Below are positions 1,379 to 45,165 of a DNA stretch of 64,000 bases, in pieces. The stretch comes from Candidatus Falkowbacteria bacterium. Lineage in GTDB: Bacteria; Patescibacteriota; Patescibacteriia; UBA11705. The position numbers were made by a program, and so were the translations under genes. The stretch lies in the NCBI GenBank assembly GCA_003518055.1, contig DOZJ01000002.1, positions 55,225-119,224 on the forward strand, written 5' to 3'. Below the pieces are notes generated by a model. It was given only the letters and a program-made list of their open reading frames with translations. It was not told the origin of the DNA and made no database searches. How positions within the stretch are numbered: position 1 is the stretch's first letter; each line of letters starts with the position of its first letter.

Positions 1379-1520
1379 TATCAAGTCATAAAACAAAATT
1401 AGAAGGTATTTACTTAAAATAATTTGTAATTAGTCGAAATTAGGCTGTCTACCGATAAATTTCTCGCCGAAGGACGAGTCAGTCCTATGGCTGACAACAA
1501 ATTTCCCAACTTCTATTAAT

Positions 1521-1603
1521 TTCATTTCTCTAAACCCGCTACCCGCTACCCGCTACACGCTAAAAGCTAAAAGCTATAAGCTATAAGTAAAACGCTATTC
1601 GCT
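1521..1603. repeat. Short tandem repeats abutting a start codon: 3x 'cccgctac', then 'aagctaaa' and 'aagctata' units, ending ...cgctATG
   Basis: Direct reading of the sequence. 7-8 bp periodicity. No Shine-Dalgarno. Confidence 0.8.
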
Positions 1604-3408: not shown

Positions 3409-3521
3409 AAGTATTTAAAAGCGAATTTACATTCATTTTCTTACTCTATCTTCTTCTTGTATTTGTATTCGTCGTCTCATAATTGTATTTTATCCTCTTA
3501 ATTATCTAAAATTTTACCACC

Positions 3522-18437: not shown

Positions 18438-18492
18438 ATGGGTGGGGTGTATGATAATATAATGGTATTAGAAGTATAAATTGTCGCTAATT

Positions 18493-20499
18493 ATGATGAA
18501 AAAAATTGTTTCAGGAGTAATGTTGTTGTTTCTCGCATTATTAACCGCCGCTCCAGTCTTAGCTAATGATCCCTATGAAGATGACCAATGGTATTTGGAT
18601 CAAATCAATGTTCGGCCGGCTTGGGACATTACAACCGGGAACGATGAGATCGTCGTCGCGGTTCTTGATACCGGCGTGGATATGAACCACCCGGATTTGG
18701 TCGACAATCTCTGGACTAATCCAAACGAGATCTCGGGTGATGGCCGCGATAACGACAACAATGGTTTTATTGACGATGTTCACGGCTGGAATTTTATCTA
18801 TGACTCCAACGATCCTGAACCGCACATCACCTCAATCTACTCGGTTGAAGCGGTTAAACACGGAACCTTTGTGGCGGGGCTTATTTCCGCGGTTCATGAT
18901 AATAATGTCGGTATCAAGGGTGTCACCGCCAAGGTAAAAATCATGCCTCTGGTGGTCTTGAATGCCGCCGGCTTTGGTACTTCGACCTCAGTCTCCGATG
19001 CCATTCATTATGCGATTGATAATGGCGCCGATGTCATCAATTTGAGCTTTGGCGGCAGCGAACATTACAGCGCGCTCAAAAGCGCCATTGTCCGCGCTTA
19101 TGACAACAACGTGACCGTCGTGGCTGCCGCCGGCAATAGTATCAGCGGCGGGTTAAACTTGGCTGCGAGTCCGGTTTATCCAATTTGCTACGACAATGAT
19201 TGGGAATTGAACGCCATAATCGGTGTGGCCGCGACCGATGAAGACAACCAATTATCAGGTTATTCAAATTACGGCGGTGGCTGTATTGATATTGTCGCCC
19301 CCGGTGACAATATCACCAGCTTGGCATTTTACAATAATGAATTTAGTGATTTTTCCACCTTGGTCGAGCAGCAATACATGGGCACGTCTTTTTCCACGGC
19401 CTTGGTTTCAGGGACCGTGGCTTTGATGAAATCCATCAATCCAACCTTTACCACCGAACAAGTGGCGGAAATTCTGGCTTCAACCGCTGTAAATCTTGAT
19501 TCAATTAATCCGGATTACGTGGATCAACTTGGAGCCGGTCTATTAGACGCCGCCGCCGCCGTGACTGAGACGTATAATCAGTACAATGTTGAAAATCGTC
19601 TGAAATTTTATATCAGCGCGGATGAAAACCATCCAGCGGCGGCTTATGAGTATGATGTGACCTTTCGGCATCTGAATGATATTGAGGTTTTCGGTTCCGG
19701 TTTCATTGGCTTGAATCTTCAGTCCGGCGATTTGAACGCCGATGGCGTAGCCGATTTGGTGACGGCCGCCAAACCCGGGCAAATGCCGTTTGTCCGCGGT
19801 ATCAGTTCGGATAAAGTATTACTCAGCAGTTTTCTGGCGTTTGAAGATTCCTTCCGTGGCGGCGTTCGCGCCGACGCGGGCGATGTTGACAATGACGGCC
19901 AAATTGAATACGTAGTCGTGCCGGAAAAAGACCGCGCGCCGGTTGTTCGGGTTTTTGATCATAATGGTAAATTACAAACCGGATTCAAAGCCTTTGACCG
20001 CTCAGATTGGTTTGGTTTATCCGTCGCGGTGGGCGATGTGACTGGCGACTCTCGGGCTGAGATCGTGGTCGGCGCGCCAAAAGGCAGCACCCCGGAAGTG
20101 AAAATTTTCGACTCAAACGGCCACTTACTGAAAACTCTTTTGGTTTACGGCTCAAACTTTACCGGCGGCGTCAATGTGGCTCTCGGGGCTATCTCCGGCC
20201 GGGGCTATGATGATATTATCGTCGGCGCCGGCTTCGGCGGCGGTCCTCATGTTCGAGCGTTTTCTTATGATGGGTCTCTCCGCGCCAATTTTTTCGCTTA
20301 CAACGACAATTTCCGCGGCGGTGTCAGGGTTGCGGCCGGTGATTTTAATCTTGATGGTTACATCGATATTATTACCGCTCCGGGCAAGACTGGCGGTCCG
20401 CACGTCCGTATTTACACCCCGACCGGAAATATGCTCGGAGAATTCTTTGCCCTATCAGCTGATTATACCGGAGGGATTCAGGTCGCGGTTGGTGAATAA
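18493..20499 (+). CDS. Secreted subtilisin-like serine protease (peptidase S8) with C-terminal FG-GAP/VCBS repeats
   Basis: Catalytic triad contexts 'DTGVDMNHPDL', 'HGTFVAG' and 'GTSFSTALVSG'. Signal peptide. Repeated 'GD.N.DG..D' units. ATG at 18493 is preferred over the TTG at 18481. Confidence 0.85.
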   Translation: MMKKIVSGVMLLFLALLTAAPVLANDPYEDDQWYLDQINVRPAWDITTGNDEIVVAVLDTGVDMNHPDLVDNLWTNPNEISGDGRDNDNNGFIDDVHGWNFIYDSNDPEPHITSIYSVEAVKHGTFVAGLISAVHDNNVGIKGVTAKVKIMPLVVLNAAGFGTSTSVSDAIHYAIDNGADVINLSFGGSEHYSALKSAIVRAYDNNVTVVAAAGNSISGGLNLAASPVYPICYDNDWELNAIIGVAATDEDNQLSGYSNYGGGCIDIVAPGDNITSLAFYNNEFSDFSTLVEQQYMGTSFSTALVSGTVALMKSINPTFTTEQVAEILASTAVNLDSINPDYVDQLGAGLLDAAAAVTETYNQYNVENRLKFYISADENHPAAAYEYDVTFRHLNDIEVFGSGFIGLNLQSGDLNADGVADLVTAAKPGQMPFVRGISSDKVLLSSFLAFEDSFRGGVRADAGDVDNDGQIEYVVVPEKDRAPVVRVFDHNGKLQTGFKAFDRSDWFGLSVAVGDVTGDSRAEIVVGAPKGSTPEVKIFDSNGHLLKTLLVYGSNFTGGVNVALGAISGRGYDDIIVGAGFGGGPHVRAFSYDGSLRANFFAYNDNFRGGVRVAAGDFNLDGYIDIITAPGKTGGPHVRIYTPTGNMLGEFFALSADYTGGIQVAVGE

Positions 20500-21176: not shown

Positions 21177-21632
21177 ATGATCTCCGGAGTTCAAATCAAA
21201 CCCATCAAACGCTTCTGCGATGACCGCGGTTATTTTTGCGAAGTTATTAAGTTCGGTGAAGACACTTATCACGAAGTCAAACAAACCAGCTATACCGAGA
21301 CGCATCCCGGCGTGATCAAAGCTTTCCATTGGCACAAAAAACAATGGGATGTCTGGTTCGTGGTTCGGGGTATGGCTCAGGTTGTGCTTCATGATATGCG
21401 CGATGACTCGCCAACCAAAGGCGAAACTCAAGTCATTTGCGCCGGCGAAGATAACCCGGTCTTGATTGCCATCCCGCCATTTGTGGCCCATGGTTATCGG
21501 GTTCTGGGAAACGAGAAGGTTTGTTTGTTTTATCACACGAGCGAAGCCTATGATCCGGCCAACCCGGATGAAGAGCGGATCGAATTTGACGACCCGAAAA
21601 TCGGCTTTGACTGGACCACCAAAAATCGTTAG
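21177..21632 (+). CDS. rfbC: dTDP-4-dehydrorhamnose 3,5-epimerase (short cupin form)
   Basis: 'DDRGYFCEV' and 'AFHWHKKQ' correspond to RmlC 'DERGFF' and 'GLHFQ' motifs. Confidence 0.7.
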   Translation: MISGVQIKPIKRFCDDRGYFCEVIKFGEDTYHEVKQTSYTETHPGVIKAFHWHKKQWDVWFVVRGMAQVVLHDMRDDSPTKGETQVICAGEDNPVLIAIPPFVAHGYRVLGNEKVCLFYHTSEAYDPANPDEERIEFDDPKIGFDWTTKNR

Positions 21633-21727: not shown

Positions 21728-22309
21728 ATGCTCGAAAAAATCAAACAACACATGGAAAATTTTTTCGATCCGTTTTGCCGCCTTTTTTTCCCGGTGATCC
21801 CAATGTGGGTCACGCCGAATCGCTTGACCATAAGCAGATTAATCGGTGTGCCTTTTCTGATATATTTTTTATGGCAGGGCTGGTATGTTGGTTCGCTGGT
21901 TTTATTTATCCTTTTAGCCTTGACCGACATGTTCGACGGCGCTCTGGCTCGCGGCCGCAATATGATTACCGAGTTTGGCACTTTGCTTGACCCGCTCGCC
22001 GACAAAATTTTAATTGCCTCAGCCAGTTTGATTCTATTGATCAAGGTAAACCTGACTTTGGCTATTCTGGTCGTCGGACTGGATGTCATTGTCATCGTTT
22101 TGGGCGCGGTCGGAAAACTCATCGGCCACAAATTGACCTTGAAGGCTAATATTTGGGGCAAAACCAAATTAACCCTGCAGGTTCTAGGTATCGGTTTGGT
22201 ATTTTTGGGTTTTATTTTCAACTTCGTGTGGCTTCATAACGTGGCCGAATATTTTCTCTGGGCCGCTATCGGCTTTGCCATCATCAGTATTGTCAAAAAC
22301 GGGGCGTGA
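21728..22309 (+). CDS. CDP-alcohol phosphatidyltransferase family protein (PgsA-like)
   Basis: Signature 'D..DG.LAR......G..LD...D' present: 'DMFDGALARGRNMITEFGTLLDPLADK'. Multi-TM. Confidence 0.75.
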   Translation: MLEKIKQHMENFFDPFCRLFFPVIPMWVTPNRLTISRLIGVPFLIYFLWQGWYVGSLVLFILLALTDMFDGALARGRNMITEFGTLLDPLADKILIASASLILLIKVNLTLAILVVGLDVIVIVLGAVGKLIGHKLTLKANIWGKTKLTLQVLGIGLVFLGFIFNFVWLHNVAEYFLWAAIGFAIISIVKNGA

Positions 22310-22404
22310 GTTAATTGAGCGTATAGCGCCTCTGTCTGCTGGCAGACAGGTTTAGCGTCTAGGGTAGAGAAAAAACTAACCGCTGCACACCAACCCCTAA
22401 AATT

Positions 22405-22749
22405 ATGGATTGGAAAGAGCAATTTAACGAAGGTCAGGAGTTAGTCTTGGCCACAGCGTCAAAATCGAGTCTCCCCAACGCCAATATTGTGGTCTCATTA
22501 GGGTTCGTCGCCGAAAAATTATTGGTGGCCAACTGCCAAATGAATCAAACCATAAAAAATTTGACTGAAAACAATCGCATCTGCGTTATTGGCGGCTATT
22601 ATAGACTCAAAGGCACGGTGGAAATTTTTTCTTCAGGTGAATATTTTGATTTATGCCAGCAAAAAAACGCCGGTTATGAAGTTAAAAGCGCTATTTTGAT
22701 CACGGTCGATGAAATTTTTGATTTGAATGACCTGAAAGTCATAAGGTAA
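22405..22749 (+). CDS. Hypothetical small protein, possibly PNPOx-like FMN-binding split barrel
   Basis: 114 aa, size and pattern only. Confidence 0.3.
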   Translation: MDWKEQFNEGQELVLATASKSSLPNANIVVSLGFVAEKLLVANCQMNQTIKNLTENNRICVIGGYYRLKGTVEIFSSGEYFDLCQQKNAGYEVKSAILITVDEIFDLNDLKVIR

Positions 22750-22809
22750 CGAGCGCCCACTGCCGTTTTATATATTACACATTACATATTACACAAATAA
22801 TTCACCAAT

Positions 22810-23214
22810 ATGCCCGACTGTATTTTTTGTAAAATTATCGCCGGTGATATCCCGAGTTATAAAATCTATGAAGACGCTGAGTTTTTGGCATTTCTTGATA
22901 TTCGGCCGCTGACAAAAGGGCATGCTTTAGTTATTCCCAAGAAACACTATCGCTGGGTTTGGGATGTTGAAAATATTTCCGGCTATTACTCCGTGGTCAA
23001 AAAAATCGCCAACGCCCAAAAACACGCTTTTGGCACCGACCGGATTTTTTCTCTCGTTTTTGGCGAAGAAGTTCCTCATGCCCACGTTTGGCTCATCCCG
23101 AGATACGACGACGATGGCCATGGCCCGGCAATTGATTTAAAAAATATTCAAGAATATTCACCAGATCAAATGATGGCCTTCGCTGAAGCGATTAAAAATC
23201 ATTTGTCGGACTAG
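22810..23214 (+). CDS. HIT family hydrolase
   Basis: 'CIFCKII' start and histidine triad 'VPHAHVWLIP'. Confidence 0.85.
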   Translation: MPDCIFCKIIAGDIPSYKIYEDAEFLAFLDIRPLTKGHALVIPKKHYRWVWDVENISGYYSVVKKIANAQKHAFGTDRIFSLVFGEEVPHAHVWLIPRYDDDGHGPAIDLKNIQEYSPDQMMAFAEAIKNHLSD

Positions 23215-23286
23215 CGGATTCTGTTCCCTGACAGTTGTTTGATCTCCCCTAATTACTGATCACTGTTTACTCTTTACTTTTTCTAT

Positions 23287-23838
23287 ATGCACCAAGAATG
23301 GCAGACCATAAAAAGCAACGAGATTCACAAAAATCCTTGGTATCGTCTGGTTCAGGATGATGTGGTCATGCCGAGCGGCCAAGTTGGTAAATATACTTAT
23401 ATCGACCGCAGCCCGGGCGTGATTATCCTCGCTCTGACGCCGGGCAAAGAATTGTATATCGTTGGCCAATACCGCTACCCGGTCAAAAAGTTTTCCTGGG
23501 AATTGCCGATGGGTGCGGTTGAAACGGGGGATGCTGATGTTCTCAGCGCCGCCAAACGGGAGCTGTTGGAGGAGGTCGGGGTGGCCGCGGCCAAGTGGAC
23601 TGAGTTCGGCCATTTTGATTTTTGCAACGGCCTCTGCAACCAAGTAGCGCATATTTTTGTGGCGGAAGATTTGACCCAGCAGGAAGCCAATCCCGCCTTT
23701 ACCGAATTCATTACCATGAAACGAGTCCCGATCAATGAAATTGAACAGATGATCTCCCGCGGCGAGATTTCCAACGCCCCGACGATTAGCGCTTTTTATC
23801 GGTTTCAGTTGGGGAACAAGGGAGAGCAAGGGAGATAA
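23287..23838 (+). CDS. NUDIX hydrolase (ADP-ribose pyrophosphatase-like)
   Basis: Nudix box 'GAVETGDADVLSAAKRELLEEVGV'. Confidence 0.8.
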   Translation: MHQEWQTIKSNEIHKNPWYRLVQDDVVMPSGQVGKYTYIDRSPGVIILALTPGKELYIVGQYRYPVKKFSWELPMGAVETGDADVLSAAKRELLEEVGVAAAKWTEFGHFDFCNGLCNQVAHIFVAEDLTQQEANPAFTEFITMKRVPINEIEQMISRGEISNAPTISAFYRFQLGNKGEQGR

Positions 23839-24207: not shown

Positions 24208-25227
24208 ATGAAAATGCTTGTAACCGGAGGGGCCGGTTTTATCGGATCAAACTTTATCCGTTTTATTTTGACTAAATATCCTCATTACGCGGTAATTAAT
24301 TTTGATAAATTAACCTACGCCGGTAATTTGGAGAATCTGCGCGACGTTGAACATCACCCCAACTATTCTTTTGTTAAGGGTGATATTTTAAATACCGAAT
24401 TATTGATTCACGTGATGAAGGACGTGGACGTGGTCGCACATTTCGCGGCTGAGACCCACGTCGATCGCTCGATCCTCGGCGCCGACGCCTTTGTTCAGAC
24501 CAATGTTATCGGGACTTACTCTGTCATGGAGGCGGCGCGGCAGACCAAAGTTAAACGTTTTCACCATATTTCCACCGATGAAGTCTTTGGCTCGCTCGGG
24601 CCTGATGGTTATTTCACCGAAGACACGCCCTATGATCCTCGGAGTCCATACTCGGCGGCCAAGGCCGCCTCGGATCATTTGGTCCGGGCATATTATCACA
24701 CCCACGGCCTGCCGGCCACCATTTCCAACTGCACCAACAACTATGGCCCCTATATGTTTCCGGAAAAAATGATGCCGCTTTTTATCACCAATTTGCTCGA
24801 AGGCAAAAAAGTGCCGCTTTACGGCGACGGTTTGAATGTCCGCGACTGGATTCATGTCGACGATCACAATCGTGCCGTTGATTTGATTATTCACGAAGGT
24901 AAAGTGGGGGAGACCTACTGCATCAGCGCTAGGGAAGAAAAAACCAATCGGGAAGTTACTGATTTGGTTTTGCAAAAAATGGGTTTTGGCCCGGACATGA
25001 TCGAATACGTCGAAGACCGCAAAGGCCACGACCGGCGCTATGCCATCCGTCCCTATAAGCTGATGGCGGAACTGGGCTGGAAACCGGCCATCAGTTTTGA
25101 TCAGGGTTTGAGCCAGATGATCGAATGGTACAAGAATAATCCTGAATGGTGGAAGCGCGTCCGGAGTGGGGAGTACCAGAATTATTACGCCAAACAATAC
25201 GGCCAAAAAACCGGTATTACCATATAA
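24208..25227 (+). CDS. rfbB: dTDP-glucose 4,6-dehydratase
   Basis: 'MLVTGGAGFIGSNF' Rossmann start, 'YSAAKAASD' YxxxK. 339 aa. Confidence 0.9.
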   Translation: MKMLVTGGAGFIGSNFIRFILTKYPHYAVINFDKLTYAGNLENLRDVEHHPNYSFVKGDILNTELLIHVMKDVDVVAHFAAETHVDRSILGADAFVQTNVIGTYSVMEAARQTKVKRFHHISTDEVFGSLGPDGYFTEDTPYDPRSPYSAAKAASDHLVRAYYHTHGLPATISNCTNNYGPYMFPEKMMPLFITNLLEGKKVPLYGDGLNVRDWIHVDDHNRAVDLIIHEGKVGETYCISAREEKTNREVTDLVLQKMGFGPDMIEYVEDRKGHDRRYAIRPYKLMAELGWKPAISFDQGLSQMIEWYKNNPEWWKRVRSGEYQNYYAKQYGQKTGITI

Positions 25228-25263
25228 ATATCTCTAAAACAGGCCTTGAAACCTGTTTTTTTA

Positions 25264-25292
25264 TTGACAAAGAGTAAAGTTTTTGATATTAT
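25264..25292 (+). promoter_or_regulatory. Promoter TTGACA-17-TGaTATTAT
   Basis: ttgaca at 25264-25269, 17-nt spacer ending tga, tattat at 25287-25292. SD 'ggagg' before the ATG at 25325. Confidence 0.5.
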
Positions 25293-25324
25293 ACATTGTC
25301 CATACACTACCGGAGGAAAAAGTC

Positions 25325-25645
25325 ATGAGGGGACCGGTCATCGCCGCTCAGATGAATCCATCCACCGTCAACTTTATGGCCAAAGTTGAAGCTGAGTGTG
25401 ATCGTTATTTGGAACTCGAATTTATACCGGGATCAACATTTTTTCGACGGGAAATGACCATTCCGGTCGCCAACTGTGATGTTGGGTATATCAGTTATCC
25501 CAAGATGTTCGCGGCCTTGATTGCTCTTTATACTACCGGCGATGAATCATGGGCCCAAGCCGTGTTTACCTTGTTTTCAACTGAAAATCAGACTTGTGTC
25601 ATCGAAGTATTTTTGTCAACCGAAACAGCCGAAACCAAGGAGTGA
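25325..25645 (+). CDS. Small hypothetical protein (paralogue A)
   Basis: Start at MRGPVIAAQ after the SD. Shares 'M.GP...VEAECD..L.L.F.P.S' with the next ORF. Confidence 0.45.
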   Translation: MRGPVIAAQMNPSTVNFMAKVEAECDRYLELEFIPGSTFFRREMTIPVANCDVGYISYPKMFAALIALYTTGDESWAQAVFTLFSTENQTCVIEVFLSTETAETKE

Positions 25646-25650
25646 AACCC

Positions 25651-26028
25651 ATGATCGGACCCCATCAGGCGGAGGCCGTGATTTTGTCAGAAGATGAAAC
25701 TCGTGTTTTTCGGGTTATTGAGGCGGCTTGTGATGCCAATCTTCCGCTTCATTTTCAACCGGATTCTCTGACAACGGAATTTTCTTTTGCTGTTAATCCG
25801 CCGGCGTTTAGAGAGATTTTGTACCGGGGGGTTGAAATTGCTTTAGCCAAATGTTACACGACCCCTACCGAAAAGAATCCCAAAGCCTGGGCAGCAGCTG
25901 AATTCAGGATTCGCAGAAAAGATAATGGGGAATTTATCATTTCCGTTAAACTGTCAGTCGCGCCGGCGCAGGAAGCTCCACGGCCGGATTTTCATGATCT
26001 CCGTAGTGATGCTTTCCATAACAAGTAA
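25651..26028 (+). CDS. Small hypothetical protein (paralogue B)
   Basis: Start MIGPHQAEAV after SD 'aaggag'. Paralogous to 25325..25645. Confidence 0.45.
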   Translation: MIGPHQAEAVILSEDETRVFRVIEAACDANLPLHFQPDSLTTEFSFAVNPPAFREILYRGVEIALAKCYTTPTEKNPKAWAAAEFRIRRKDNGEFIISVKLSVAPAQEAPRPDFHDLRSDAFHNK

Positions 26029-26099
26029 TTGAATCGTCTAACCGCGATTCTTTTTTATTTTTGATAATCACAATCTTGTCTTTCAATGGGTTAAACCAC

Positions 26100-26128
26100 T
26101 TGACAAAATTATCCATTATCGTTAAATT
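26100..26128 (+). promoter_or_regulatory. Promoter TTGACA-17-TAAATT
   Basis: ttgaca at 26100-26105. The -10 is only 4/6. Confidence 0.3.
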
Positions 26129-26157
26129 AAATTAAACGCCAAAGGAGAGGAGGCAAT

Positions 26158-26391
26158 ATGGTTGGCAGCTTCGACGAAGACACAATTCTGGATGAATTTG
26201 ATCAGGAGGAGCCGGTTTTCCTGGCTACCTGCCCCAAATGCTCATATACATTTTCTGTCGATGAATTGGCAGTCGAGTGCAAGTGTCCGCGCTGCCGCTT
26301 TGTTTTTGACCATGAAGCTTCTACTGAAGCCCCGGAGCCGGATGATGATGTGGCGGATACTGTCGATGACCTGAATTTTGATGATCAATGA
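26158..26391 (+). CDS. Small acidic zinc-ribbon protein (CPKC...CPRC)
   Basis: 77 aa. Two CxxC pairs. Very acidic N- and C-terminal tails. SD 'aaaggagaggagg'. Confidence 0.5.
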   Translation: MVGSFDEDTILDEFDQEEPVFLATCPKCSYTFSVDELAVECKCPRCRFVFDHEASTEAPEPDDDVADTVDDLNFDDQ

Positions 26392-26490: not shown

Positions 26491-27195
26491 ATGGGGCACA
26501 ATCCGCTGCAGTCGATTCCGGCCGGTGCCAAACGCGGCTGGTCAGTCAAAGTAAATGGAGCCGTGGTTGATCCGGTTTCGGTCGTAGAAATTTCCCATCC
26601 GCGTTATGGCGTCCTGAATTATGGTTCTGTTGGTGGGAGATATGACAGCTGGAATTTCATGGAGATTGGAAGCGGCGGTGTCGTTACCGTGCCATACGCC
26701 AGAGTAAATGGGGCTCTTTATATCGGCTTGGTTGATCAGGAGAGAGACAATCAAGGCGGTCGTGTTCTCAACGTTCCTCGTGGTTTTTTGGATCCCAAGG
26801 AAAAGCATTTTGAAGCCGCGGCCCGAGAACTGGAAGAAGAAACCGGTTTGGCCAATTTGAATGACCGAATGTCGGAGTTTCCCGGCCAGCGGGCCAATCC
26901 TAATTCCACATTCTTTGTAACTAACGGAGACAATGAAGGCGTAGCTTTCTTTGGTTTGGTTATCAAACCTCATGAATTGGAACGAGATCCCGGGCATGTT
27001 GTCCCTGAGCTTTCGGCCTCGGCAGTGGCTGTCGATCCGGTCGTCAGTCTCAAACTGAGGGCGGATATGGTTAAACCGGTTAGTAAACAAGCAGAATTGA
27101 TTTATAGTTGTTGTTTCCTTCCAATTTCGGTGGCCATTGCTCTTTCAGATATGTTCACCAAAGTCGCGGCCGGTCTGGTGCTGCAGCACGGTTAA
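26491..27195 (+). CDS. NUDIX-domain protein (divergent)
   Basis: Nudix box-like 'GFLDPKEKHFEAAARELEEETGL'. Confidence 0.55.
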   Translation: MGHNPLQSIPAGAKRGWSVKVNGAVVDPVSVVEISHPRYGVLNYGSVGGRYDSWNFMEIGSGGVVTVPYARVNGALYIGLVDQERDNQGGRVLNVPRGFLDPKEKHFEAAARELEEETGLANLNDRMSEFPGQRANPNSTFFVTNGDNEGVAFFGLVIKPHELERDPGHVVPELSASAVAVDPVVSLKLRADMVKPVSKQAELIYSCCFLPISVAIALSDMFTKVAAGLVLQHG

Positions 27196-27204
27196 GTTTA
27201 CATT

Positions 27205-27230
27205 AGAAAGCTAAAGAGCTTTCTTTTTTA
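27205..27230 (+). terminator. Rho-independent terminator (agaaagct-aaag-agctttct + T5)
   Basis: Perfect 8-bp stem and T-run. Confidence 0.6.
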
Positions 27231-27401
27231 ATCCAGCAAATCAAACCGTTTTATTTTCGATCCCCGCGAGAAATCTATCCCTCCAACAAATTCCTATTTA
27301 TTTCAATATGTTTCCCTATTCCAAATTTACTTATCTCGCATTCTTGCTCATCTCGCTTATCCAATTGACAATTATCCTCACTTTGCTACACTTAAATTAC
27401 T

Positions 27402-29120
27402 ATGAAAATACTTATTATCGGTGCCAAAGGCATGCTTGGTCAAGAGTTAGCTAAGGTTTTTAATGATGAAGATCTTCATCAGTGGGATCGCGAAGAGATT
27501 GATATTACCGATCGAAACGCGGTCTTCACCAAGGTCAAAGCTTTAGCGCCTGACATCATCATCAATGCCGCCGCCTACAACGCGGTGGACCAAGCCGAAG
27601 AGGAAACAGAGTTGGCTCACCTCGTCAACGCTGTCGGCCCCAAAAATCTAGCAGAGGTGGCTAGGGATCTGCACACTAAATTTGTTCACTACAGCAGTGA
27701 TTATGTTTTTGATGGTACCAAAACCGACGGATACACAGAAACCGATACCCCAAACCCGATCAGCGAATATGGCCGATCAAAGCTGGCGGGGGAGCGTTTC
27801 GTTCAAACTGCCGGCGGCCAATATTACATTATTCGCTTGTCTCGGCTATTTGGCCGGCCCGCCTTATCCGATGGCGCTAAAAAAAGCTTTGTCGACGTTA
27901 TGCGCGACCTAGGTGAAACCAAAGATGAGCTTCAGGTGGTGAATGAAGAAGTCAGCTGTCCGACATATGCTCCTGACCTTGCGTTGCAAACCAAACGGTT
28001 GCTGTCGCTCCAATTACCAGCCGGTATTTATCATTCGGCCAATGCGGGCGCCTGCACTTGGTATGAGTTCGCGGCTGAAATTTTCAAAACTTTAAATAAA
28101 ACCCTTCACTTGATCCCTGTAGCCGGATCCACTTTTCCTCGGCCGGCCAAACGCCCGGCGTATTCAGAGTTAAAGACAACAAAAATGCCGGCGATGCGGC
28201 CTTGGTCGGAGGCGCTACGTGAATATTTGAATCGCGATAATCGTCCGGTTAAAACCGATCTGACTTCCAAATCAAATTCAGCAGCCAATCTCAATCAAAT
28301 GCCACTCAATCAAAATGTTATTCCTCCCGTCGTGCCACAATCTGTTGGCTCAAGTCGAGGGATGAAAGGGATTGTTCTAGCCGGAGGCAAGGGCACTCGT
28401 CTGTATCCATTGACTAAAATCACCAGCAAACAGCTACTGCCTGTTTTCAACAAAGCCATGGTGATGTACCCGGTGGAAACTTTGATTAGGGCTGGAATAA
28501 AAGATATTTTAATCATTGTCGCGCCTGATCACGCCGGCGATTACTTGCGCCTGCTCGGTTCCGGTCGAGAATTAGGGGTCAAATTTACCTACGAAATTCA
28601 AGATGAACCCAAAGGCTTGCCCGAAGCGTTCATTATCGGGGAGAATTTTATCGGCGACGACGATGTGACCATGATTTTGGGCGACAATATTTTCTTTGGG
28701 CATGATTTTTCCGACGACATCCAGTCTTTTGTCAAAGGCGGCCGAATTTTTGCCGTTGAAGTCCCAGATCCGGAGCGCTTTGGCGTTGTCGAATTTGATT
28801 CCACCATGAAAGTGTTGTCGATTGAAGAAAAACCGCAACAGCCAAAGAGTCATTACGCTATTCCCGGTGTTTATATTTACGACCATCGCGTGATCAATAT
28901 TGCCAAAGGTATCCGGCCAACTTGGCGGACTGAAACCGATATTGTCGAGGTCCACAAAGCCTATCTTGGATTAAATGAACTTGATGTCCGCATGGTTCGT
29001 GGCAGTTGGTATGATGCCGGCACCTTCGAGTCTCTGCTTCAGGCTTCAAATGAAGCGGCCGCCGAAGCTTACAAAAAAAAGCTGGGCATGAATCCGGATA
29101 TTTATACCGCCAAAAAATAA
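27402..29120 (+). CDS. rfbD-rfbA: Bifunctional fusion: dTDP-4-dehydrorhamnose reductase (RmlD, N-terminal) + glucose-1-phosphate thymidylyltransferase (RmlA, C-terminal)
   Basis: N-terminal 'MKILIIGAKGMLGQEL' Rossmann and 'YSSDYVFDG' of RmlD. From about residue 320, 'MKGIVLAGGKGTRLYPLT' of RmlA. Single uninterrupted 572-aa frame with a Pro/Ser/Asn-rich linker. Confidence 0.8.
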   Translation: MKILIIGAKGMLGQELAKVFNDEDLHQWDREEIDITDRNAVFTKVKALAPDIIINAAAYNAVDQAEEETELAHLVNAVGPKNLAEVARDLHTKFVHYSSDYVFDGTKTDGYTETDTPNPISEYGRSKLAGERFVQTAGGQYYIIRLSRLFGRPALSDGAKKSFVDVMRDLGETKDELQVVNEEVSCPTYAPDLALQTKRLLSLQLPAGIYHSANAGACTWYEFAAEIFKTLNKTLHLIPVAGSTFPRPAKRPAYSELKTTKMPAMRPWSEALREYLNRDNRPVKTDLTSKSNSAANLNQMPLNQNVIPPVVPQSVGSSRGMKGIVLAGGKGTRLYPLTKITSKQLLPVFNKAMVMYPVETLIRAGIKDILIIVAPDHAGDYLRLLGSGRELGVKFTYEIQDEPKGLPEAFIIGENFIGDDDVTMILGDNIFFGHDFSDDIQSFVKGGRIFAVEVPDPERFGVVEFDSTMKVLSIEEKPQQPKSHYAIPGVYIYDHRVINIAKGIRPTWRTETDIVEVHKAYLGLNELDVRMVRGSWYDAGTFESLLQASNEAAAEAYKKKLGMNPDIYTAKK

Positions 29121-29156: not shown

Positions 29157-29192
29157 TTGTCTGGTTGACCAATAAAACAAAAATAAAATTTA

Positions 29193-30052
29193 TGATGATG
29201 TCCTTCAAAGAAGTTTTTAAGACGTCTTGGCGCAACGTTTTCAAGTACAAAAGTTTGTGGTTCATGGGCATATTCGTATCCGGCGCCAGCATTCTACTCG
29301 AATATAATCCGGACGATATCAACCAATTTTTTTCCACCCTAGCCTCAGTCGGAGTTATCAATTGGTTCACCGGACTCGCCAAGGCGCCTGCGTTTCTTCT
29401 GTTGATTATTTTAGGCTTGATTTTAGCCGTAGTTTTTGCCTTGATTTCTGTCATTGCCTCAGCTGGATTGCTGGCAGCAGTAGGGCAAATCAAAAATGAA
29501 GCTCGAGCTGATTTTAAATATAATATAAAAGCCGGTCTGAGCCGATTCGCGCCGATGATCGTGGCGGCTGTTTGGTTTTTTATCCCCTTGTTTTTTCTGT
29601 TTATTTTGACGGTTATTTTTTATCAATTTGAGTTGTTTTTCTTGTCGTCATTAGTTGGTATATTGATGTTTGTTTACATGTTTTTCATTTATTTATTCAA
29701 ACACTTTGCTTCATGTTATATCGTGCTGGAGCAGTACCCTGCTTGGGCGGCAATCATGGCCGGTTTTAAATTTTTTATCCGGAATTGGTCTTCGGTATTA
29801 GTCGCGCACTTGATTGATTGGGGTATCCTCTTGGCCTTCTTTTTGGCCAGTTTTCTAATCGCGGCGTTGGTGGCCATCCCCTTTATCCTGATCGGTGCCA
29901 TTTTGATCCTTTTTTCCGGCTGGAGCTTACCGTTTGTCACCATCATGATCGGTATTGTCGTTTATGGTTTAGTCACGATAATTATGTCCGGAATTCGAGT
30001 TTGTTTCTCGTATAACTTTTTAACGCATACATACTGGCAGCTGAAAAAATAA
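29193..30052 (+). CDS. Hypothetical polytopic membrane protein
   Basis: Multiple hydrophobic helices. ATG at 29193 is preferred over the TTG at 29165. Confidence 0.5.
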
Positions 30053-30070
30053 AATTTGCAGCTGAATTAA

Positions 30071-30095
30071 AAAACAGGCATAGCGCCTGTTTTTA
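30071..30095. terminator. Bidirectional terminator (A5-caggc-atagc-gcctg-T5) between convergent genes
   Basis: Hairpin flanked by an A-run and a T-run. Confidence 0.6.
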
Positions 30096-30107: not shown

Positions 30108-31460
30108 TTAATGTATCTCCAAGGCAAATAATCCGGGTTCGGTATTCTTAAAGTAATATATAAACTCTCCCTTCCGGTCAAGTACCATATCATTGATATC
30201 ATCAATCGGGAGGTCCCACTGCAGCCGATAGTCTCGTTCGTCCAGTTCGATTATTTTAGCCCGATTTTGGAAGGCGTACACGACATAGTTTATCTCCGGA
30301 TACCAGCTGACGTGACTGATCCCATCGCTCACCCTGGTAATGGTAGTCTTTTCCCCAGCGTCCAGATCGAACACCGCGATTTCATTCTTGTCTGCGACTA
30401 AAAGCAGATTTTCTTTTTCTTTGTAATAATAACTTGAAAGCTCAGTCACACCGGTCAAGATTTCTCCCAGCCCTAAACTGACAAAATATGTTGTATCTGA
30501 TGTTTTATCAAGAATCACCAAATGATCATCAACCACTCCTGGGATGGTATATTCTGCTGTCGGCAGGATTATTTTTGCCTCAGGCCGGTCAGCCGGCACT
30601 CCGACGCGATGCCTTTCAATGATCGTTTCTTGATTTCGATCGCTGGAGATCAGATAAAGGTAATCATTGTAAATATTGAAATCCGCTTGTTTGACCGGGT
30701 TATAGTTGTCCACGGTTTCCGTCACTAGGATCCGATTTTGAATGGTGGCTTGGATAATTTTGTCACCCGACACCGCGTACAAAATATTATCTTCTTCCAA
30801 ACTAAATTTAACCTTTACCGCATTGGCCATAAATTCGGCGACTGTTATTTTAATGCTTGGAGCGGTCCGGTTGATAATTACTCCGGACAAAGCCGGCTCA
30901 GCGAAGGTCAGGAGCAAAAAATTTCCGTCTTTTGACCATGATAGGTTCGGCTCATTTAGAGTGTCGGTGGTATTATATATTTTTTGGACTGTTTTGCTGC
31001 CAAACGCGTAGTAATAAATATCCAGCTCATTCTCGTTGTGGCTGAGAATGGCCGCGCCTTTTCGATCCGGTGTTTCCGCCATGGCCGTGACACGAAAGTC
31101 AAACAACTTTTTCGGATCGGTTTTTTTGAACAACACAATATCTTCAGCAAAGGTCGTTTCCTGCGAGTTTATAGTTAGATTTTTTTTCCATGGATAATAA
31201 CCGTCTTTCGAGATTTCGATGGTATATTTTTGCGGCGTCAAATCAGTCAGTCTGATCGGGGTCTGATATTCTACTTCTTGATTGAGCGTCAGCCGCGCGG
31301 CCCGGGGAGCGGTTTCAACTACCAGTGTGCCGGTCGTCGCCAGCTGTTGTTTTTTTGGATTGTAGCGATAGCCGGCAGTGTAAAAAATCAAAATCGGGGC
31401 GATGATCACAAAAGCCAAAATGAATGAATACGCCAAAAAACGCCGCGCGTGGATGTTCAT
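30108..31460 (-). CDS. PEGA-domain protein with N-terminal TM anchor and beta-rich C-terminal region
   Basis: 'YTIEISKDGYYPWKKNLTIN' matches the PEGA motif. 450 aa. Confidence 0.55.
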   Translation of the reverse strand: MNIHARRFLAYSFILAFVIIAPILIFYTAGYRYNPKKQQLATTGTLVVETAPRAARLTLNQEVEYQTPIRLTDLTPQKYTIEISKDGYYPWKKNLTINSQETTFAEDIVLFKKTDPKKLFDFRVTAMAETPDRKGAAILSHNENELDIYYYAFGSKTVQKIYNTTDTLNEPNLSWSKDGNFLLLTFAEPALSGVIINRTAPSIKITVAEFMANAVKVKFSLEEDNILYAVSGDKIIQATIQNRILVTETVDNYNPVKQADFNIYNDYLYLISSDRNQETIIERHRVGVPADRPEAKIILPTAEYTIPGVVDDHLVILDKTSDTTYFVSLGLGEILTGVTELSSYYYKEKENLLLVADKNEIAVFDLDAGEKTTITRVSDGISHVSWYPEINYVVYAFQNRAKIIELDERDYRLQWDLPIDDINDMVLDRKGEFIYYFKNTEPGLFALEIH

Positions 31461-45118: not shown

Positions 45119-45165
45119 GCCGGCACTTGATCTCGTCTTGCCATCAAAATTTCAACGAACAATAT

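What the first reader, a model, noticed from the sequence alone, without database searches (positions are those of the whole stretch)
27402..29120. RmlD-RmlA fusion; dTDP-rhamnose pathway complete but scattered
One 572-aa frame encodes dTDP-4-dehydrorhamnose reductase joined by a Pro/Ser/Asn-rich linker to glucose-1-phosphate thymidylyltransferase. These are the last and first enzymes of the pathway, fused in the order D-A. RmlC (21177) and RmlB (24208) are separate genes several kb away, interleaved with HIT/Nudix genes. This is an unusual organisation compared with the canonical rmlBDAC operon.
Basis: partly seen in the sequence, partly recalled or inferred. Interest (0 to 1): 0.5.

Follow-up and report, generated by a model that had tools for sequence, protein, structure and literature searches.

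The report
Fused RmlD-RmlA rhamnose pathway enzyme
One gene in this groundwater Patescibacteria (Ca. Falkowbacteria) genome really does encode the last and the first enzyme of dTDP-rhamnose synthesis as a single protein joined by a floppy linker; the fusion is genuine and recurs in relatives, but it is only one mutation away from the standard gene order, so it is a modest curiosity and not a surprise.

Summary
Window 27402-29120 (+) is one uninterrupted 572-aa ORF with a complete RmlD domain (aa 1-280), a disordered linker of about 40 aa, and an RmlA domain (aa 321-572). It is not an artefact. The identical DNA was assembled from three sequencing runs by three pipelines. About 90 homologues keep the D-A order, with linkers of 0-160 aa that share no sequence. 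The 36 close Patescibacteria fusions are monophyletic in both domain trees. All catalytic residues of both domains are conserved. The RmlA domain is a short form: it lacks the last 33 or so residues and most residues that line the canonical allosteric pocket. The RmlD domain is of the monomeric GacA-like class. D followed by A is the canonical rmlBDAC adjacency, and in many genomes a single in-frame stop codon or a 1-4-nt overlap separates the two genes, so the fusion is easy to make. It has arisen several times but remains rare. The "scattered" layout (C-like, CDP-OH transferase, HIT, Nudix, B, DA) is a block conserved in three species. "Pathway complete" is only partly supported, because the RmlC candidate is a divergent 151-aa cupin lacking two of the four canonical catalytic residues. 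I found no paper describing this fusion. Interest is low to moderate.

The parts
27402..29120 (+). Single 572-aa ORF encoding the RmlD-linker-RmlA fusion (stop codon 29118-29120)
   Evidence: The identical protein is deposited as 'TPA: dTDP-4-dehydrorhamnose reductase [Candidatus Falkowbacteria bacterium]'.
27402..28241 (+). RmlD domain (aa 1-280): dTDP-4-dehydrorhamnose reductase. It has the NAD(P)H motif G7-x-x-G10-x-x-G13 and the catalytic triad S99/Y123/K127. It lacks the Mg2+ dimerisation motif, so it is of the monomeric GacA-like class.
   Evidence: TIGR01214 scores 278 bits, above its cutoff. Foldseek gives TM 0.94 to 1vl0. The class criteria come from PMC4832382. Triad conservation across 77 fusions is T/S 77, Y 76, K 77.
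28242..28361 (+). Linker (aa 281-320): N/S/P/Q-rich, predicted disordered, not conserved among relatives
   Evidence: AF2 pLDDT is below 50 for residues 281-317. Linkers of relatives share no sequence and range from 0 to 160 aa. GC3 is 0.33 in the linker against 0.50 in both domains.
28362..28364 (+). Internal ATG (Met321), the ancestral rmlA start codon, retained inside the fusion
   Evidence: Met is kept in 70 of 77 fusions while position 320 is hypervariable. No conserved Shine-Dalgarno sequence lies upstream.
28362..29117 (+). RmlA domain (aa 321-572): glucose-1-phosphate thymidylyltransferase, short form. All catalytic and substrate-binding residues are kept, but the C-terminal 33 or so residues and most of the allosteric pocket are missing or changed.
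   Evidence: Foldseek gives TM about 0.80 to 4ho9 and 1fxo over roughly 250 of 290 residues.
27365..27392 (+). Promoter-like site (TTGACA-16-TACACT, with TG) ending 10 nt before the ATG. No Shine-Dalgarno sequence is present, so the mRNA may be leaderless or have a very short leader.
   Evidence: This is a consensus match only, and promoter-like sites are not enriched over shuffles (20 found, 19.3 expected).
24208..25227 (+). RmlB, dTDP-glucose 4,6-dehydratase (339 aa)
   Evidence: TIGR01181 scores 471 bits against a cutoff of 365.
21177..21632 (+). RmlC-like short cupin (151 aa), the presumed 3,5-epimerase. His51 and Tyr125 are kept, Asp58 replaces the canonical Lys, the C-terminal Asp is absent, and an H51-x-H53-x4-D58 plus His105 motif is present.
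21728..22309 (+). CDP-alcohol phosphatidyltransferase, a member of the conserved syntenic block
22810..23214 (+). HIT-family protein (134 aa), a member of the conserved block
23287..23838 (+). Nudix hydrolase with an NDPSase_N domain (NDP-sugar pyrophosphatase type), a member of the conserved block
26491..27195 (+). Second Nudix-domain protein (234 aa), directly upstream of the fusion. The two relatives examined have no gene with a Nudix Pfam hit at this position.
29165..30052 (+). DUF7544-like polytopic membrane protein, 44-74 nt downstream of the fusion and probably co-transcribed. It is syntenic in all three species.
25236..25259 (+). Terminator-like hairpin plus T-run directly after the rmlB stop codon
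   Evidence: Terminator-like sites number 27 against 14.2 +/- 3.3 in shuffles.
27205..27224 (+). Terminator-like hairpin directly after the second Nudix gene, upstream of the fusion
30070..30094 (+). Terminator-like hairpin (10-bp stem) after the DUF7544-like gene. It would close a two-gene unit made of the fusion and the membrane protein.

Best explanation
This is a genuine bifunctional enzyme. An N-terminal dTDP-4-dehydrorhamnose reductase (RmlD, last step) and a C-terminal glucose-1-phosphate thymidylyltransferase (RmlA, first step) fold as two independent catalytic domains joined by a disordered, rapidly evolving tether of about 40 residues. The fusion arose in an ancestor of a Falkowbacteria/Kuenenbacteria-type Patescibacteria clade when the stop codon between adjacent rmlD and rmlA genes (the canonical rmlB-D-A-C order) was lost. 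The former intergenic spacer became the linker. The two halves most likely work as they do when separate: RmlA makes dTDP-glucose, the separately encoded RmlB and the RmlC-like cupin convert it, and the RmlD domain reduces the 4-keto intermediate to dTDP-L-rhamnose. The fusion adds obligatory 1:1 expression from one, possibly leaderless, transcript. It also keeps the enzyme that makes dTDP-L-rhamnose physically next to the enzyme that dTDP-L-rhamnose inhibits. The following are shown: the single ORF, both folds, intact catalytic residues, the disordered variable linker, recurrence and monophyly of the fusion, and the one-mutation route. The following are inferred: that both activities are real, that the product is L-rhamnose, that the RmlA part oligomerises and carries monomeric RmlD domains on tethers, and that the fusion confers any selective benefit.
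For: The ORF is single and both domains are assigned with high significance. The identical DNA comes from 3 runs and 3 assemblers. About 90 of the best 120 homologues are D-A fusions, including Falkowbacteria, Kuenenbacteria, other Patescibacteria and Methanoculleus, with linkers of 0-160 aa. The linkers share no sequence and have low GC3. The AF2 model has pLDDT 91 with residues 281-317 below 50, and pTM 0.55, which means two confident domains with no fixed interface. Each domain superimposes on solved single enzymes: TM 0.94 for RmlD and about 0.80 for RmlA. The RmlD triad S99/Y123/K127 and the GxxGxxG motif are conserved. RmlA residues R333, K343, Q400, G405, D428, E476, K477, Y491, E511, W536 and D538 equal PaRmlA R15, K25, Q82, G87, D110, E161, K162, Y176, E196, W223 and D225, and most are invariant across 77 fusions. 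The 36 Patescibacteria fusions are monophyletic in both the A and the D tree. The window has no second rmlD or rmlA copy, so both halves are needed if the pathway runs. Among genomes with adjacent rmlD and rmlA, 7 have a single in-frame stop between them, 4 have a 4-nt overlap and 1 has a 1-nt overlap. Feedback inhibition of RmlA by dTDP-L-rhamnose is established in the literature (PMC10375476).
Against: There are no biochemical data for any D-A fusion in the literature I could search. The RmlA half falls below NCBIfam's equivalog cutoff because its C-terminus is missing. The missing part contributes to the allosteric pocket at the subunit interface in canonical RmlA, so the oligomeric state and regulation of this form are unknown. 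AF2 predicts no inter-domain contact, so nothing supports substrate channelling. The steps are not consecutive, so channelling would not be expected anyway. The fusion is rare: only about 5 or 6 of the best 150 cluster representatives span both domains, against 7,484 single-domain-level hits at E<1e-30. That rarity is compatible with a nearly neutral event. The epimerase step relies on a divergent cupin.
Confidence: 0.8

Rival explanations
1. The fusion is an assembly or sequencing artefact: a lost stop codon or a frameshift at about 28.27-28.36 kb has joined two separate genes.
For: Adjacent rmlD and rmlA genes separated by one stop codon are common, so a single base error could mimic a fusion. 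All contigs carrying this exact gene come from one population and are 100% identical in DNA, so they are not evolutionarily independent.
Against: The same sequence was recovered from 3 runs by 3 assemblers. Thirty-five further Patescibacteria homologues at 52-79% (D) and 70-87% (A) identity keep one open frame across linkers of 13-160 aa. Both other frames are closed by multiple stops across the junction.
Confidence: 0.01
2. The gene yields two products. Besides the 63-kDa fusion, translation also starts at the retained internal ATG (Met321), giving free RmlA, so the cell tunes the A:D ratio above 1:1. This is compatible with the best explanation.
For: Met321 is kept in 70 of 77 fusions although the preceding residue is hypervariable. 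That is about the same frequency as in unfused RmlA, where Met is the start codon (68 of 76). Canonical enzymes tolerate Arg at this position (PaRmlA 'MKRKGI'), so the fold does not require Met. A Methanoculleus-type locus has GGTGA 8 nt upstream of the internal ATG.
Against: No conserved Shine-Dalgarno-like sequence lies upstream of the internal ATG in the window or in the two Patescibacteria relatives. In the window, GAGGG abuts the ATG with no spacing. Met may simply be retained because neighbouring residues co-evolved with it. There are no expression data.
Confidence: 0.2
3. One half is not an enzyme but a regulatory or scaffolding module. The RmlD-like domain might act as an NADP(H)- or dTDP-sugar-sensing regulator of the attached RmlA, as the RmlD homologue MAT2B regulates methionine adenosyltransferase.
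For: MAT2B chains are significant sequence matches to the RmlD half (E about 1e-21). The RmlA half has lost most of its own allosteric pocket, which leaves room for another mode of control. The RmlD domain is the fastest-evolving of the four pathway components (56-67% identity against 67-79% for the others).
Against: The RmlD domain scores above the curated RmlD equivalog cutoff. It keeps the triad in 76-77 of 77 fusions and superimposes on solved RmlD with TM 0.94. The window has no other rmlD. AF2 predicts no contact between the domains.
Confidence: 0.05
4. The enzymes are real, but the end product is not dTDP-L-rhamnose. It could be another dTDP-6-deoxyhexose, such as a 3-epimer or 6-deoxy-L-talose, because the epimerase is non-canonical.
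For: The only RmlC-like gene lacks two of the four canonical catalytic residues: Asp58 replaces the canonical Lys and the C-terminal Asp is absent. It carries a cupin-type HxH...D motif and scores 60 bits against a cutoff of 156 on the RmlC equivalog model. It also has weak similarity to the Cap5F cupin domain and to WbuC and FdtA cupins.
Against: The same short cupin occupies the RmlC slot of a compact rmlA-C-B-D cluster in L021. It is very conserved (72-89%) and syntenic with rmlB and rmlDA across Patescibacteria. Sources annotate homologues as RmlC family or as 'spore coat protein', which probably refers to B. subtilis SpsL of the spsIJKL dTDP-L-rhamnose genes (PMC7439481; the SpsL identity is my recollection and was not tested). 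The reductase half passes the RmlD equivalog cutoff.
Confidence: 0.15

Closest known systems
Other fusions of rml-pathway genes: RmlC-RmlD (69 of 21,964 genomes), RmlA-RmlB, RmlA-RmlC (bioRxiv 10.1101/854612)
   Same: Two enzymes of the dTDP-L-rhamnose pathway are encoded in one polypeptide. The fusions are sporadic and clade-restricted, and database names often cover only one half.
   Different: That survey does not report a D-A combination. This fusion joins the last and first steps and not neighbouring steps, has a long disordered linker, and forms a sizeable Patescibacteria clade plus a Methanoculleus clade.
HldE, the bifunctional enzyme of ADP-heptose synthesis (cited in 10.1101/854612)
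   Same: One polypeptide carries two activities that are not consecutive in the same nucleotide-sugar pathway, and one of them is a nucleotidyltransferase.
   Different: The protein families are unrelated. HldE is biochemically characterised, whereas this fusion is not.
Canonical stand-alone RmlA (P. aeruginosa 1FXO, S. enterica, E. coli), a tetramer with an allosteric dTDP-L-rhamnose site
   Same: The core fold (TM about 0.80) and every catalytic and substrate-binding residue are the same, with 45-56% identity.
   Different: The last 33 or so residues are missing. Pocket residues change: L45 to R363, H119 to S437, E120 to D438, R259 to A570, Q260 to K571. The protein is fused behind RmlD. It scores below the TIGR01207 cutoff.
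Monomeric RmlD class (GacA of S. pyogenes 4WPG; C. acetobutylicum 1VL0; B. anthracis 3SC6) (PMC4832382)
   Same: The catalytic triad and fold are the same, the Pro-x-Gly break in helix alpha1 is absent, and the E2 Mg2+ ligand is missing (Pro191). The best structural matches are 1vl0 and 3sc6.
   Different: It carries a C-terminal linker and a second enzyme. Its oligomeric state is untested.
Bacillus spsIJKL / rfb short-type rml enzymes (PMC7439481; B. anthracis RfbA PDB 3HL3)
   Same: A naturally short RmlA exists (3hl3 matches at E 1.7e-59). The 151-aa RmlC-like cupin is labelled 'spore coat protein' by some sources.
   Different: The genes are separate in Bacillus. The window's RmlA core is closer to long-form enzymes (283 bits to 4ho0 against 205 bits to 3hl3). 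Equivalence to SpsL was not tested here.
MAT2B, the regulatory subunit of methionine adenosyltransferase (RmlD-like fold)
   Same: It is homologous to the RmlD half (E about 1e-21) and is a precedent for an RmlD-fold protein that regulates a partner enzyme.
   Different: MAT2B is a separate eukaryotic subunit. Here the RmlD half keeps full catalytic signatures.

Membership tests
RmlD, dTDP-4-dehydrorhamnose reductase (TIGR01214 / PF04321) | Score above the curated equivalog cutoff | tested here: met
   278.4 bits against a cutoff of 224.05 on aa 2-277; PF04321 scores 285.7 bits.
RmlD, dTDP-4-dehydrorhamnose reductase (TIGR01214 / PF04321) | N-terminal GxxGxxG NAD(P)H motif and the SDR catalytic triad Thr/Ser-Tyr-Lys (Se T104/Y128/K132) | tested here: met
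   The motif is G7/G10/G13. The triad S99/Y123/K127 aligns to the 1kbz and 4wpg triads (triad defined in PMC4832382). Across 77 fusions the counts are T/S 77, Y 76, K 77.
RmlD, dTDP-4-dehydrorhamnose reductase (TIGR01214 / PF04321) | RmlD fold | tested here: met
   Foldseek gives TM 0.94 and rmsd 1.4 A to 1vl0. The model has pLDDT above 94 over most of the domain.
RmlD, dTDP-4-dehydrorhamnose reductase (TIGR01214 / PF04321) | NAD(P)H-dependent reduction of dTDP-6-deoxy-L-lyxo-4-hexulose to dTDP-L-rhamnose | not testable with these tools
   This needs an enzyme assay.
Dimeric (Salmonella-type) RmlD subclass | The E1 - P(L/V)G - E/D2 - E3 Mg2+-dependent dimerisation motif | tested here: not met
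   E15 is present, helix alpha1 has no Pro-x-Gly (the sequence is KVFNDEDL), and Pro191 sits at E2 (criteria from PMC4832382). The domain is therefore filed with the monomeric class.
RmlA, glucose-1-phosphate thymidylyltransferase, short form (TIGR01207 / PF00483) | Score above the curated equivalog cutoff | tested here: not met
   293.9 bits against a cutoff of 360.65, with only profile positions 1-234 of 286 matched. The Pfam NTP_transferase gathering score is met (199.7 bits against 21.2).
RmlA, glucose-1-phosphate thymidylyltransferase, short form (TIGR01207 / PF00483) | The G-G-x-G-T-R-L loop and the catalytic, dTTP-binding and Glc-1-P-binding residues (Pa R15, K25, Q82, G87, D110, E161, K162, Y176, E196, W223, D225) | tested here: met
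   All are conserved as R333, K343, Q400, G405, D428, E476, K477, Y491, E511, W536 and D538. Most are invariant across 77 fusions.
RmlA, glucose-1-phosphate thymidylyltransferase, short form (TIGR01207 / PF00483) | C-terminal helical region that forms the allosteric dTDP-L-rhamnose pocket at the subunit interface (Pa L45, G115, H119, E120, I256, R259, Q260; Se E256) | tested here: not met
   The equivalents are R363, G433, S437, D438, I567, A570 and K571. The protein ends 33 residues early, and the tail has pLDDT 43-73. Pocket residues come from PMC8613358 and PMC10375476.
RmlA, glucose-1-phosphate thymidylyltransferase, short form (TIGR01207 / PF00483) | Thymidylyltransferase activity and feedback inhibition by dTDP-L-rhamnose | not testable with these tools
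   This needs an enzyme assay.
RmlC, dTDP-4-dehydrorhamnose 3,5-epimerase (TIGR01221 / PF00908), for the gene at 21177-21632 | Score above the curated cutoffs | tested here: inconclusive
   PF00908 scores 77 bits, above its cutoff of 27. TIGR01221 scores 60.3 bits, below its cutoff of 155.75.
RmlC, dTDP-4-dehydrorhamnose 3,5-epimerase (TIGR01221 / PF00908), for the gene at 21177-21632 | The catalytic His63-Asp170 dyad, Lys73 and Tyr133 (Salmonella numbering, recalled from established RmlC literature) | tested here: not met
   His51 and Tyr125 align with the canonical His and Tyr. Asp58 sits where the Lys of the 'QGK' motif is, and the protein ends before the 'LSxKD' Asp that all 7 canonical RmlCs in the alignment carry. 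An HxH(x)4D motif is present in 4 of 4 short-type sequences and in none of 7 canonical ones.
RmlC, dTDP-4-dehydrorhamnose 3,5-epimerase (TIGR01221 / PF00908), for the gene at 21177-21632 | Genomic association with rmlA, rmlB and rmlD | tested here: met
   It is syntenic with rmlB and rmlDA in three species. The same short type lies inside an A-C-B-D cluster in L021.
Natural bifunctional fusion protein (as opposed to an assembly chimera) | One open frame recovered independently and conserved among diverged relatives, with both domains under constraint | tested here: met

The most novel reading that the evidence does not exclude
The tether is functional. Having lost the canonical allosteric pocket, the short RmlA is controlled in cis by its attached RmlD. 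This could work through the high local concentration of freshly made dTDP-L-rhamnose at the RmlA active site, or through a MAT2B-like sensing role of the RmlD domain. In addition, the conserved internal Met321 start would give a second, free RmlA product that sets the A:D ratio. That would be a new regulatory design for the committed step of rhamnose synthesis in reduced genomes.
Probability: 0.08. Interest if true: 0.5.

Novelty: new variant of a known kind. Interest (0 to 1): 0.25.

Why it matters
The practical point is annotation. NCBI names this protein, and several named relatives, only 'dTDP-4-dehydrorhamnose reductase', and the RmlA half falls below the curated RmlA cutoff. Automated metabolic reconstructions of these Patescibacteria may therefore report the rhamnose pathway as lacking its first enzyme. 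The 151-aa epimerase-like cupin may be missed in the same way. The biological point is that an ultra-small, probably host-dependent bacterium keeps a full nucleotide-sugar pathway in a block conserved across species, next to envelope genes (MurA, a PEGA protein, a membrane protein, and GT2 transferases elsewhere in the window). That points to a rhamnose-containing surface glycan, which matters for how such cells attach to hosts. For enzymology, the fusion is a natural single-chain pairing of the feedback-sensitive first enzyme with the enzyme that makes the inhibitor, in a form that has lost the usual allosteric pocket. That makes it a convenient system for testing how proximity affects feedback, and possibly a compact catalyst for chemo-enzymatic dTDP-rhamnose synthesis. 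None of this overturns current understanding.

Tried and rejected
None of the 80 loci had D and A in one ORF, so it cannot be used as a census of the fusion. It did reveal the D-then-A adjacency and junction types.

(2) The look-up of the Methanoculleus protein P0057 found nothing on record. P0065 was used instead, but that contig starts just upstream of the fusion, so the presence of rmlB and rmlC there is unknown.

(3) The search for a ribosome-binding site in front of the internal ATG was inconclusive. There is none in the two Patescibacteria relatives, and the gene's own start also lacks one.

(4) The promoter scan shows no enrichment over shuffles (20 found, 19.3 expected). The site before the fusion is therefore only a consensus match.

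(5) Five literature searches found no description of a D-A fusion. The hits for 'RmlA-RmlD' are ranges of gene names and not fusions. The library lacks many subscription papers. Plata 2012 and Baumgartner 2017 could not be read, so the properties of SpsL and of the short B. anthracis RfbA were not verified.

(6) I considered that a 3,4-ketoisomerase (FdtA-like, HxH motif) might replace RmlC. I rejected this as the main reading because no aminotransferase is nearby and the FdtA match is weak (E 0.0077).

(7) Substrate channelling is rejected as a rationale. The two steps are not consecutive and AF2 gives no inter-domain interface.

It was accepted only after 13 of 13 literature-numbered residues matched.
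Full report
WHAT IS THERE. Window 27402-29120 (+) is one ATG-started ORF of 572 codons. The junction DNA reads through without a stop, and both alternative frames are closed by several stops between codons 250 and 340. Pfam places RmlD_sub_bind on aa 1-278 (E 4.3e-85) and NTP_transferase on aa 322-553 (E 7.3e-59). NCBIfam gives rmlD (TIGR01214) at 278 bits, above its cutoff of 224. It gives rmlA (TIGR01207) at 294 bits, below its cutoff of 361, because only profile positions 1-234 of 286 are matched.

IS IT AN ARTEFACT? No. The identical protein is deposited as 'TPA: dTDP-4-dehydrorhamnose reductase [Candidatus Falkowbacteria bacterium]'. It is encoded on at least 8 contigs from groundwater runs SRR2177986, SRR2177953 and SRR5855242, assembled by three pipelines. 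The five contigs I compared are 100% identical to the window over the gene and 400 nt on each side. These contigs sample one population, so the stronger argument is evolutionary. About 90 of the 120 best homologues carry both domains in the order D-A. The 35 closest (52-79% identity in D, 70-87% in A) come from Falkowbacteria, Kuenenbacteria and other Patescibacteria. Their linkers range from 13 to 160 aa. A second group of about 30, which includes Methanoculleus, has linkers of 0-5 aa. A frame kept open across linkers of unrelated sequence (N/S/P/Q-rich here, E/K-rich in P0003, 103 aa in P0022) cannot be a sequencing error.

ANATOMY. An AlphaFold2 model built on 77 fusion sequences has mean pLDDT 91. 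Residues 281-317 are below 50, and pTM is only 0.55. That describes two confident globular domains on a disordered tether with no defined mutual orientation. Foldseek superimposes the N-terminal half on solved RmlD (1vl0, TM 0.94, rmsd 1.4 A). It superimposes the C-terminal half on solved RmlA (4ho9, 1fxo and others, TM about 0.80 over roughly 250 of 290 target residues). No PDB chain covers both halves. GC3 is 0.33 in the linker against 0.50 in both domains, which fits relaxed constraint or an intergenic origin.

RmlD HALF. The NAD(P)H motif G7-x-x-G10-x-x-G13 is present. The catalytic triad S99/Y123/K127 aligns with Salmonella T104/Y128/K132 and GacA T101/Y127/K131 (triad from PMC4832382). 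Across 77 fusions the triad positions are T/S in 77, Y in 76 and K in 77. The published criteria for the Mg2+-dependent dimeric class are E1, a Pro-x-Gly break in helix alpha1, E/D2 and E3. Only E1 (E15) is present here: there is no Pro-x-Gly, and Pro191 occupies E2. The domain therefore belongs with the monomeric GacA, Clostridium and Bacillus type, which also supplies its best structural matches.

RmlA HALF. I mapped it onto P. aeruginosa RmlA. Every catalytic and substrate-binding residue is conserved (R333, K343, Q400, G405, D428, E476, K477, Y491, E511, W536, D538), and most are invariant in 77 fusions. The allosteric pocket is not conserved. In canonical RmlA this pocket binds the end product dTDP-L-rhamnose at a subunit interface of the tetramer (PMC10375476, PMC8613358). 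Here L45 becomes R363, H119 becomes S437, E120 becomes D438, R259 becomes A570 and Q260 becomes K571. The protein stops 33 residues before the canonical C-terminus, and its last dozen residues have low confidence. Some other short-type fusions (P0039, P0107) lack this region entirely, whereas another set of D-A fusions (P0072, P0080, P0087 and others) carries a full-length RmlA. So the fusion is not tied to the truncation. In this protein, however, classical allosteric feedback is probably absent or different. This is an inference.

ORIGIN. Among 80 loci fetched from species-representative genomes, none has the two domains in one ORF. Eighteen of the loci have rmlD directly upstream of rmlA. 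In seven of these the rmlA reading frame begins right after a single in-frame rmlD stop codon (for example TAAATG in L008 and TAGTTG in L007). In four more the genes overlap by 4 nt (ATGA/GTGA) and in one by 1 nt. One substitution or a 1-nt indel therefore creates this fusion, and a longer in-frame spacer would become a linker.

NJ trees of each domain show the 36 Patescibacteria fusions as one clade in both trees, and the Methanoculleus-type fusions as another. Unfused CPR genes fall inside the smallest clade that joins the two groups. The fusions with full-length RmlA are scattered among unfused relatives. This indicates several independent fusion events, one of which is ancestral to the clade containing this genome. 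These are simple NJ trees without support values, so the exact number of events is uncertain.

The architecture is still rare. In a 50%-identity representative library of 1.84 billion proteins, 7,484 proteins hit at E<1e-30, but only about five or six of the best 150 span both domains, and the whole Patescibacteria clade collapses into one representative. Other fusions of rml genes with their neighbours also exist: A-D, RmlA-GT2 and RmlD-GT2. Fusion of adjacent sugar-pathway genes is thus a general, low-frequency process.

CONTEXT. The order in the window is: S8 peptidase, a hypothetical gene, RmlC-like (21177), CDP-alcohol phosphatidyltransferase, a PNPOx-like gene, HIT, Nudix (NDP-sugar pyrophosphatase type), RmlB (24208), three small unannotated ORFs, a second Nudix, RmlD-A (27402), a DUF7544-like membrane protein, a PEGA protein on the minus strand, then MurA, CtpB, L9 and PyrG. 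The same backbone occurs in the species whose fusion is 66% identical (L086) and in a Kuenenbacteria genome at 57% (L089). Identities there are C 77-79%, B 67-76%, A 77% and D 56-67%. So 'scattered' really means a conserved, co-directional 8-kb block.

Terminator-like hairpins are enriched in this region (27 found, 14.2 +/- 3.3 expected). They sit directly after rmlB, after the second Nudix gene and after the membrane protein. That suggests the fusion and the membrane protein form their own transcription unit. A promoter-like site ends 10 nt before the ATG, which has no Shine-Dalgarno sequence, but promoter-like sites are not enriched over chance. In a proteobacterial-type relative (P0087) the fusion sits in a compact C-B-DA operon among glycosyltransferases. 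Three GT2 transferases at 23-3408 in the window are possible users of the sugar.

IS THE PATHWAY COMPLETE? RmlB is unambiguous. The window has only one RmlC-like gene and no second A or D. That gene belongs to a tightly conserved 151-aa family (72-89% identity across Patescibacteria). Sources call it 'RmlC family protein' or 'spore coat protein'. It keeps the canonical catalytic His (H51) and Tyr (Y125). It has Asp58 where canonical RmlC has the Lys of the 'QGK' motif, and it ends before the 'LSxKD' Asp. It also shows an H51-x-H53-x4-D58 motif plus His105, which resembles a cupin metal site. That motif is present in 4 of 4 short-type sequences and in none of 7 canonical ones. The same short type occupies the RmlC position of a compact A-C-B-D cluster in L021. 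The 'spore coat' label probably reflects B. subtilis SpsL of the spsIJKL dTDP-L-rhamnose genes (PMC7439481); the SpsL equivalence is my recollection and was not tested. I therefore consider an epimerase role likely but unproven, and I put about 15% on a product other than L-rhamnose.

HOW IT MOST LIKELY WORKS. Both halves act as ordinary enzymes. RmlA makes dTDP-glucose, the free RmlB and the cupin convert it, and the tethered RmlD finishes the pathway. What the fusion changes is stoichiometry (1:1 from one message) and proximity. The domain that releases dTDP-L-rhamnose is held within the reach of a 40-residue tether of the enzyme that this compound inhibits, in a form that seems to have lost the dedicated allosteric pocket. 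If the RmlA part still oligomerises, the particle would be an RmlA core carrying monomeric RmlD domains on flexible arms. Channelling is not expected, because the steps are not consecutive and no interface is predicted. A nearly neutral origin, fixed in a lineage with a reduced genome, is fully compatible with the data.

One unexplained detail remains. The ancestral start codon of rmlA (Met321) is retained in 70 of 77 fusions, although the preceding residue is hypervariable and canonical enzymes accept Arg at that position. This could mean internal initiation producing free RmlA, to which I give about 20%, but no conserved ribosome-binding site supports it.

COMPARISON AND NOVELTY. A survey of 21,964 genomes describes RmlC-RmlD, RmlA-RmlB and RmlA-RmlC fusions and compares them with HldE, but it does not mention D-A. 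Five literature searches found no description or characterisation of a D-A fusion. Databases already hold these proteins. JGI's automatic names list both activities, while NCBI's product name lists only RmlD. I therefore rate it as a new variant of a known kind: a same-pathway 'Rosetta-stone' fusion built from two textbook families. It is real and recurrent but easily explained. Interest is 0.25. The main value is correct annotation of rhamnose synthesis in Patescibacteria and a convenient natural construct for studying feedback by proximity.

Noticed in passing
window 21177-21632 (+); also L086 5223-5678, L089 443-898, L021 11898-12431: The 151-aa RmlC-like cupin forms a distinct, highly conserved subfamily (72-89% identity across Patescibacteria). 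It has an HxH(x)4D motif plus His105, which resembles a cupin metal site. Asp replaces the canonical catalytic Lys, and the C-terminal 'LSxKD' Asp is absent. It may be a mechanistically different, possibly metal-dependent, sugar epimerase that stands in for RmlC.
   Followed up: partly
window 21728-23838 (+); L086 5719-7271; L089 982-4423: A CDP-alcohol phosphatidyltransferase, a HIT-family protein and a Nudix hydrolase with an NDPSase_N (NDP-sugar pyrophosphatase-type) domain are conserved between the RmlC-like gene and rmlB in three species. This suggests a functional link, for example turnover of dTDP-sugar or nucleotide pools, or a lipid-linked acceptor. The link was not investigated.
   Followed up: partly
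window 27365-27402 (+): The fusion gene has no Shine-Dalgarno sequence, and a TTGACA-16-TACACT promoter-like site ends 10 nt before its ATG. The relative L086 shares 'aaattactATG'. The mRNA may be leaderless or have a very short leader. The evidence is a consensus match only.
   Followed up: partly
window 29165-30052 (+) and 30108-31460 (-): A DUF7544-like polytopic membrane protein immediately downstream of the fusion, and a convergent PEGA-domain protein, are syntenic with the fusion in all three Patescibacteria species. Their function is unknown.
   Followed up: partly
window 25283-26391 (+): Three small ORFs lie between rmlB and the second Nudix gene. Two have no Pfam match and were called as 106 and 125 aa in the public assemblies. 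The third is a 77-aa acidic protein with two CxxC pairs (CPKC...CPRC), which looks like a zinc ribbon. Each is followed by a terminator-like hairpin. Nothing comparable is annotated at this position in the relatives.
   Followed up: no
window 18481-20499 (+): A 672-aa secreted subtilisin-like (S8) peptidase with C-terminal FG-GAP repeats lies directly upstream of the sugar block. It is conserved at this position in L086 and L089.
   Followed up: no
window 23-5489 (+): Three consecutive GT2-family glycosyltransferases (23-1378, 1604-2593, 2581-3408) are followed by a 655-aa DUF4012 protein. They are candidate users of the activated sugar, about 24 kb upstream of the fusion.
   Followed up: no
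window 58132-62700 (+): A 1,522-aa ORF with no Pfam match at E<=0.001 is preceded by a Peptidase_C39-like protein (56457-57416) and followed by an EamA-type transporter. It may be a large orphan surface or secreted protein.
   Followed up: no
window 45127-46113 and 49889-50839 (+): There are two paralogous proteins with Gmad2 and Germane domains (domains named for spore germination). A Cache/HAMP sensor fragment lies between them at 46840-47937.
   Followed up: no
window 15130-15636 (+): A 168-aa ORF has a weak match, below the gathering threshold, to the IS200-like Y1 transposase family (E 7e-4). It may be a remnant of a mobile element next to the ThrRS gene.
   Followed up: no
proteins P0126, P0179, P0211 (RmlA-GT2); P0147, P0184, P0200 (RmlD-GT2); P0073 (RmlA-RmlD plus about 280 extra aa); P0192, P0215 (about 190 aa N-terminal to RmlD, probably RmlC-RmlD): Metagenomic proteins show further fusions of rml enzymes with glycosyltransferases and with each other. 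The RmlA-GT2 and RmlD-GT2 combinations would couple donor synthesis directly to transfer.
   Followed up: partly
L091 999-2645 (Methanoculleus-type fusion): In this archaeal-type fusion the linker is only about 7 aa, and a GGTGA (archaeal Shine-Dalgarno-like) sequence lies 8 nt upstream of the internal ATG of the RmlA part. The gene overlaps the stop of an unrelated upstream 333-aa gene and is followed by methyltransferase and glycosyltransferase genes.
   Followed up: no
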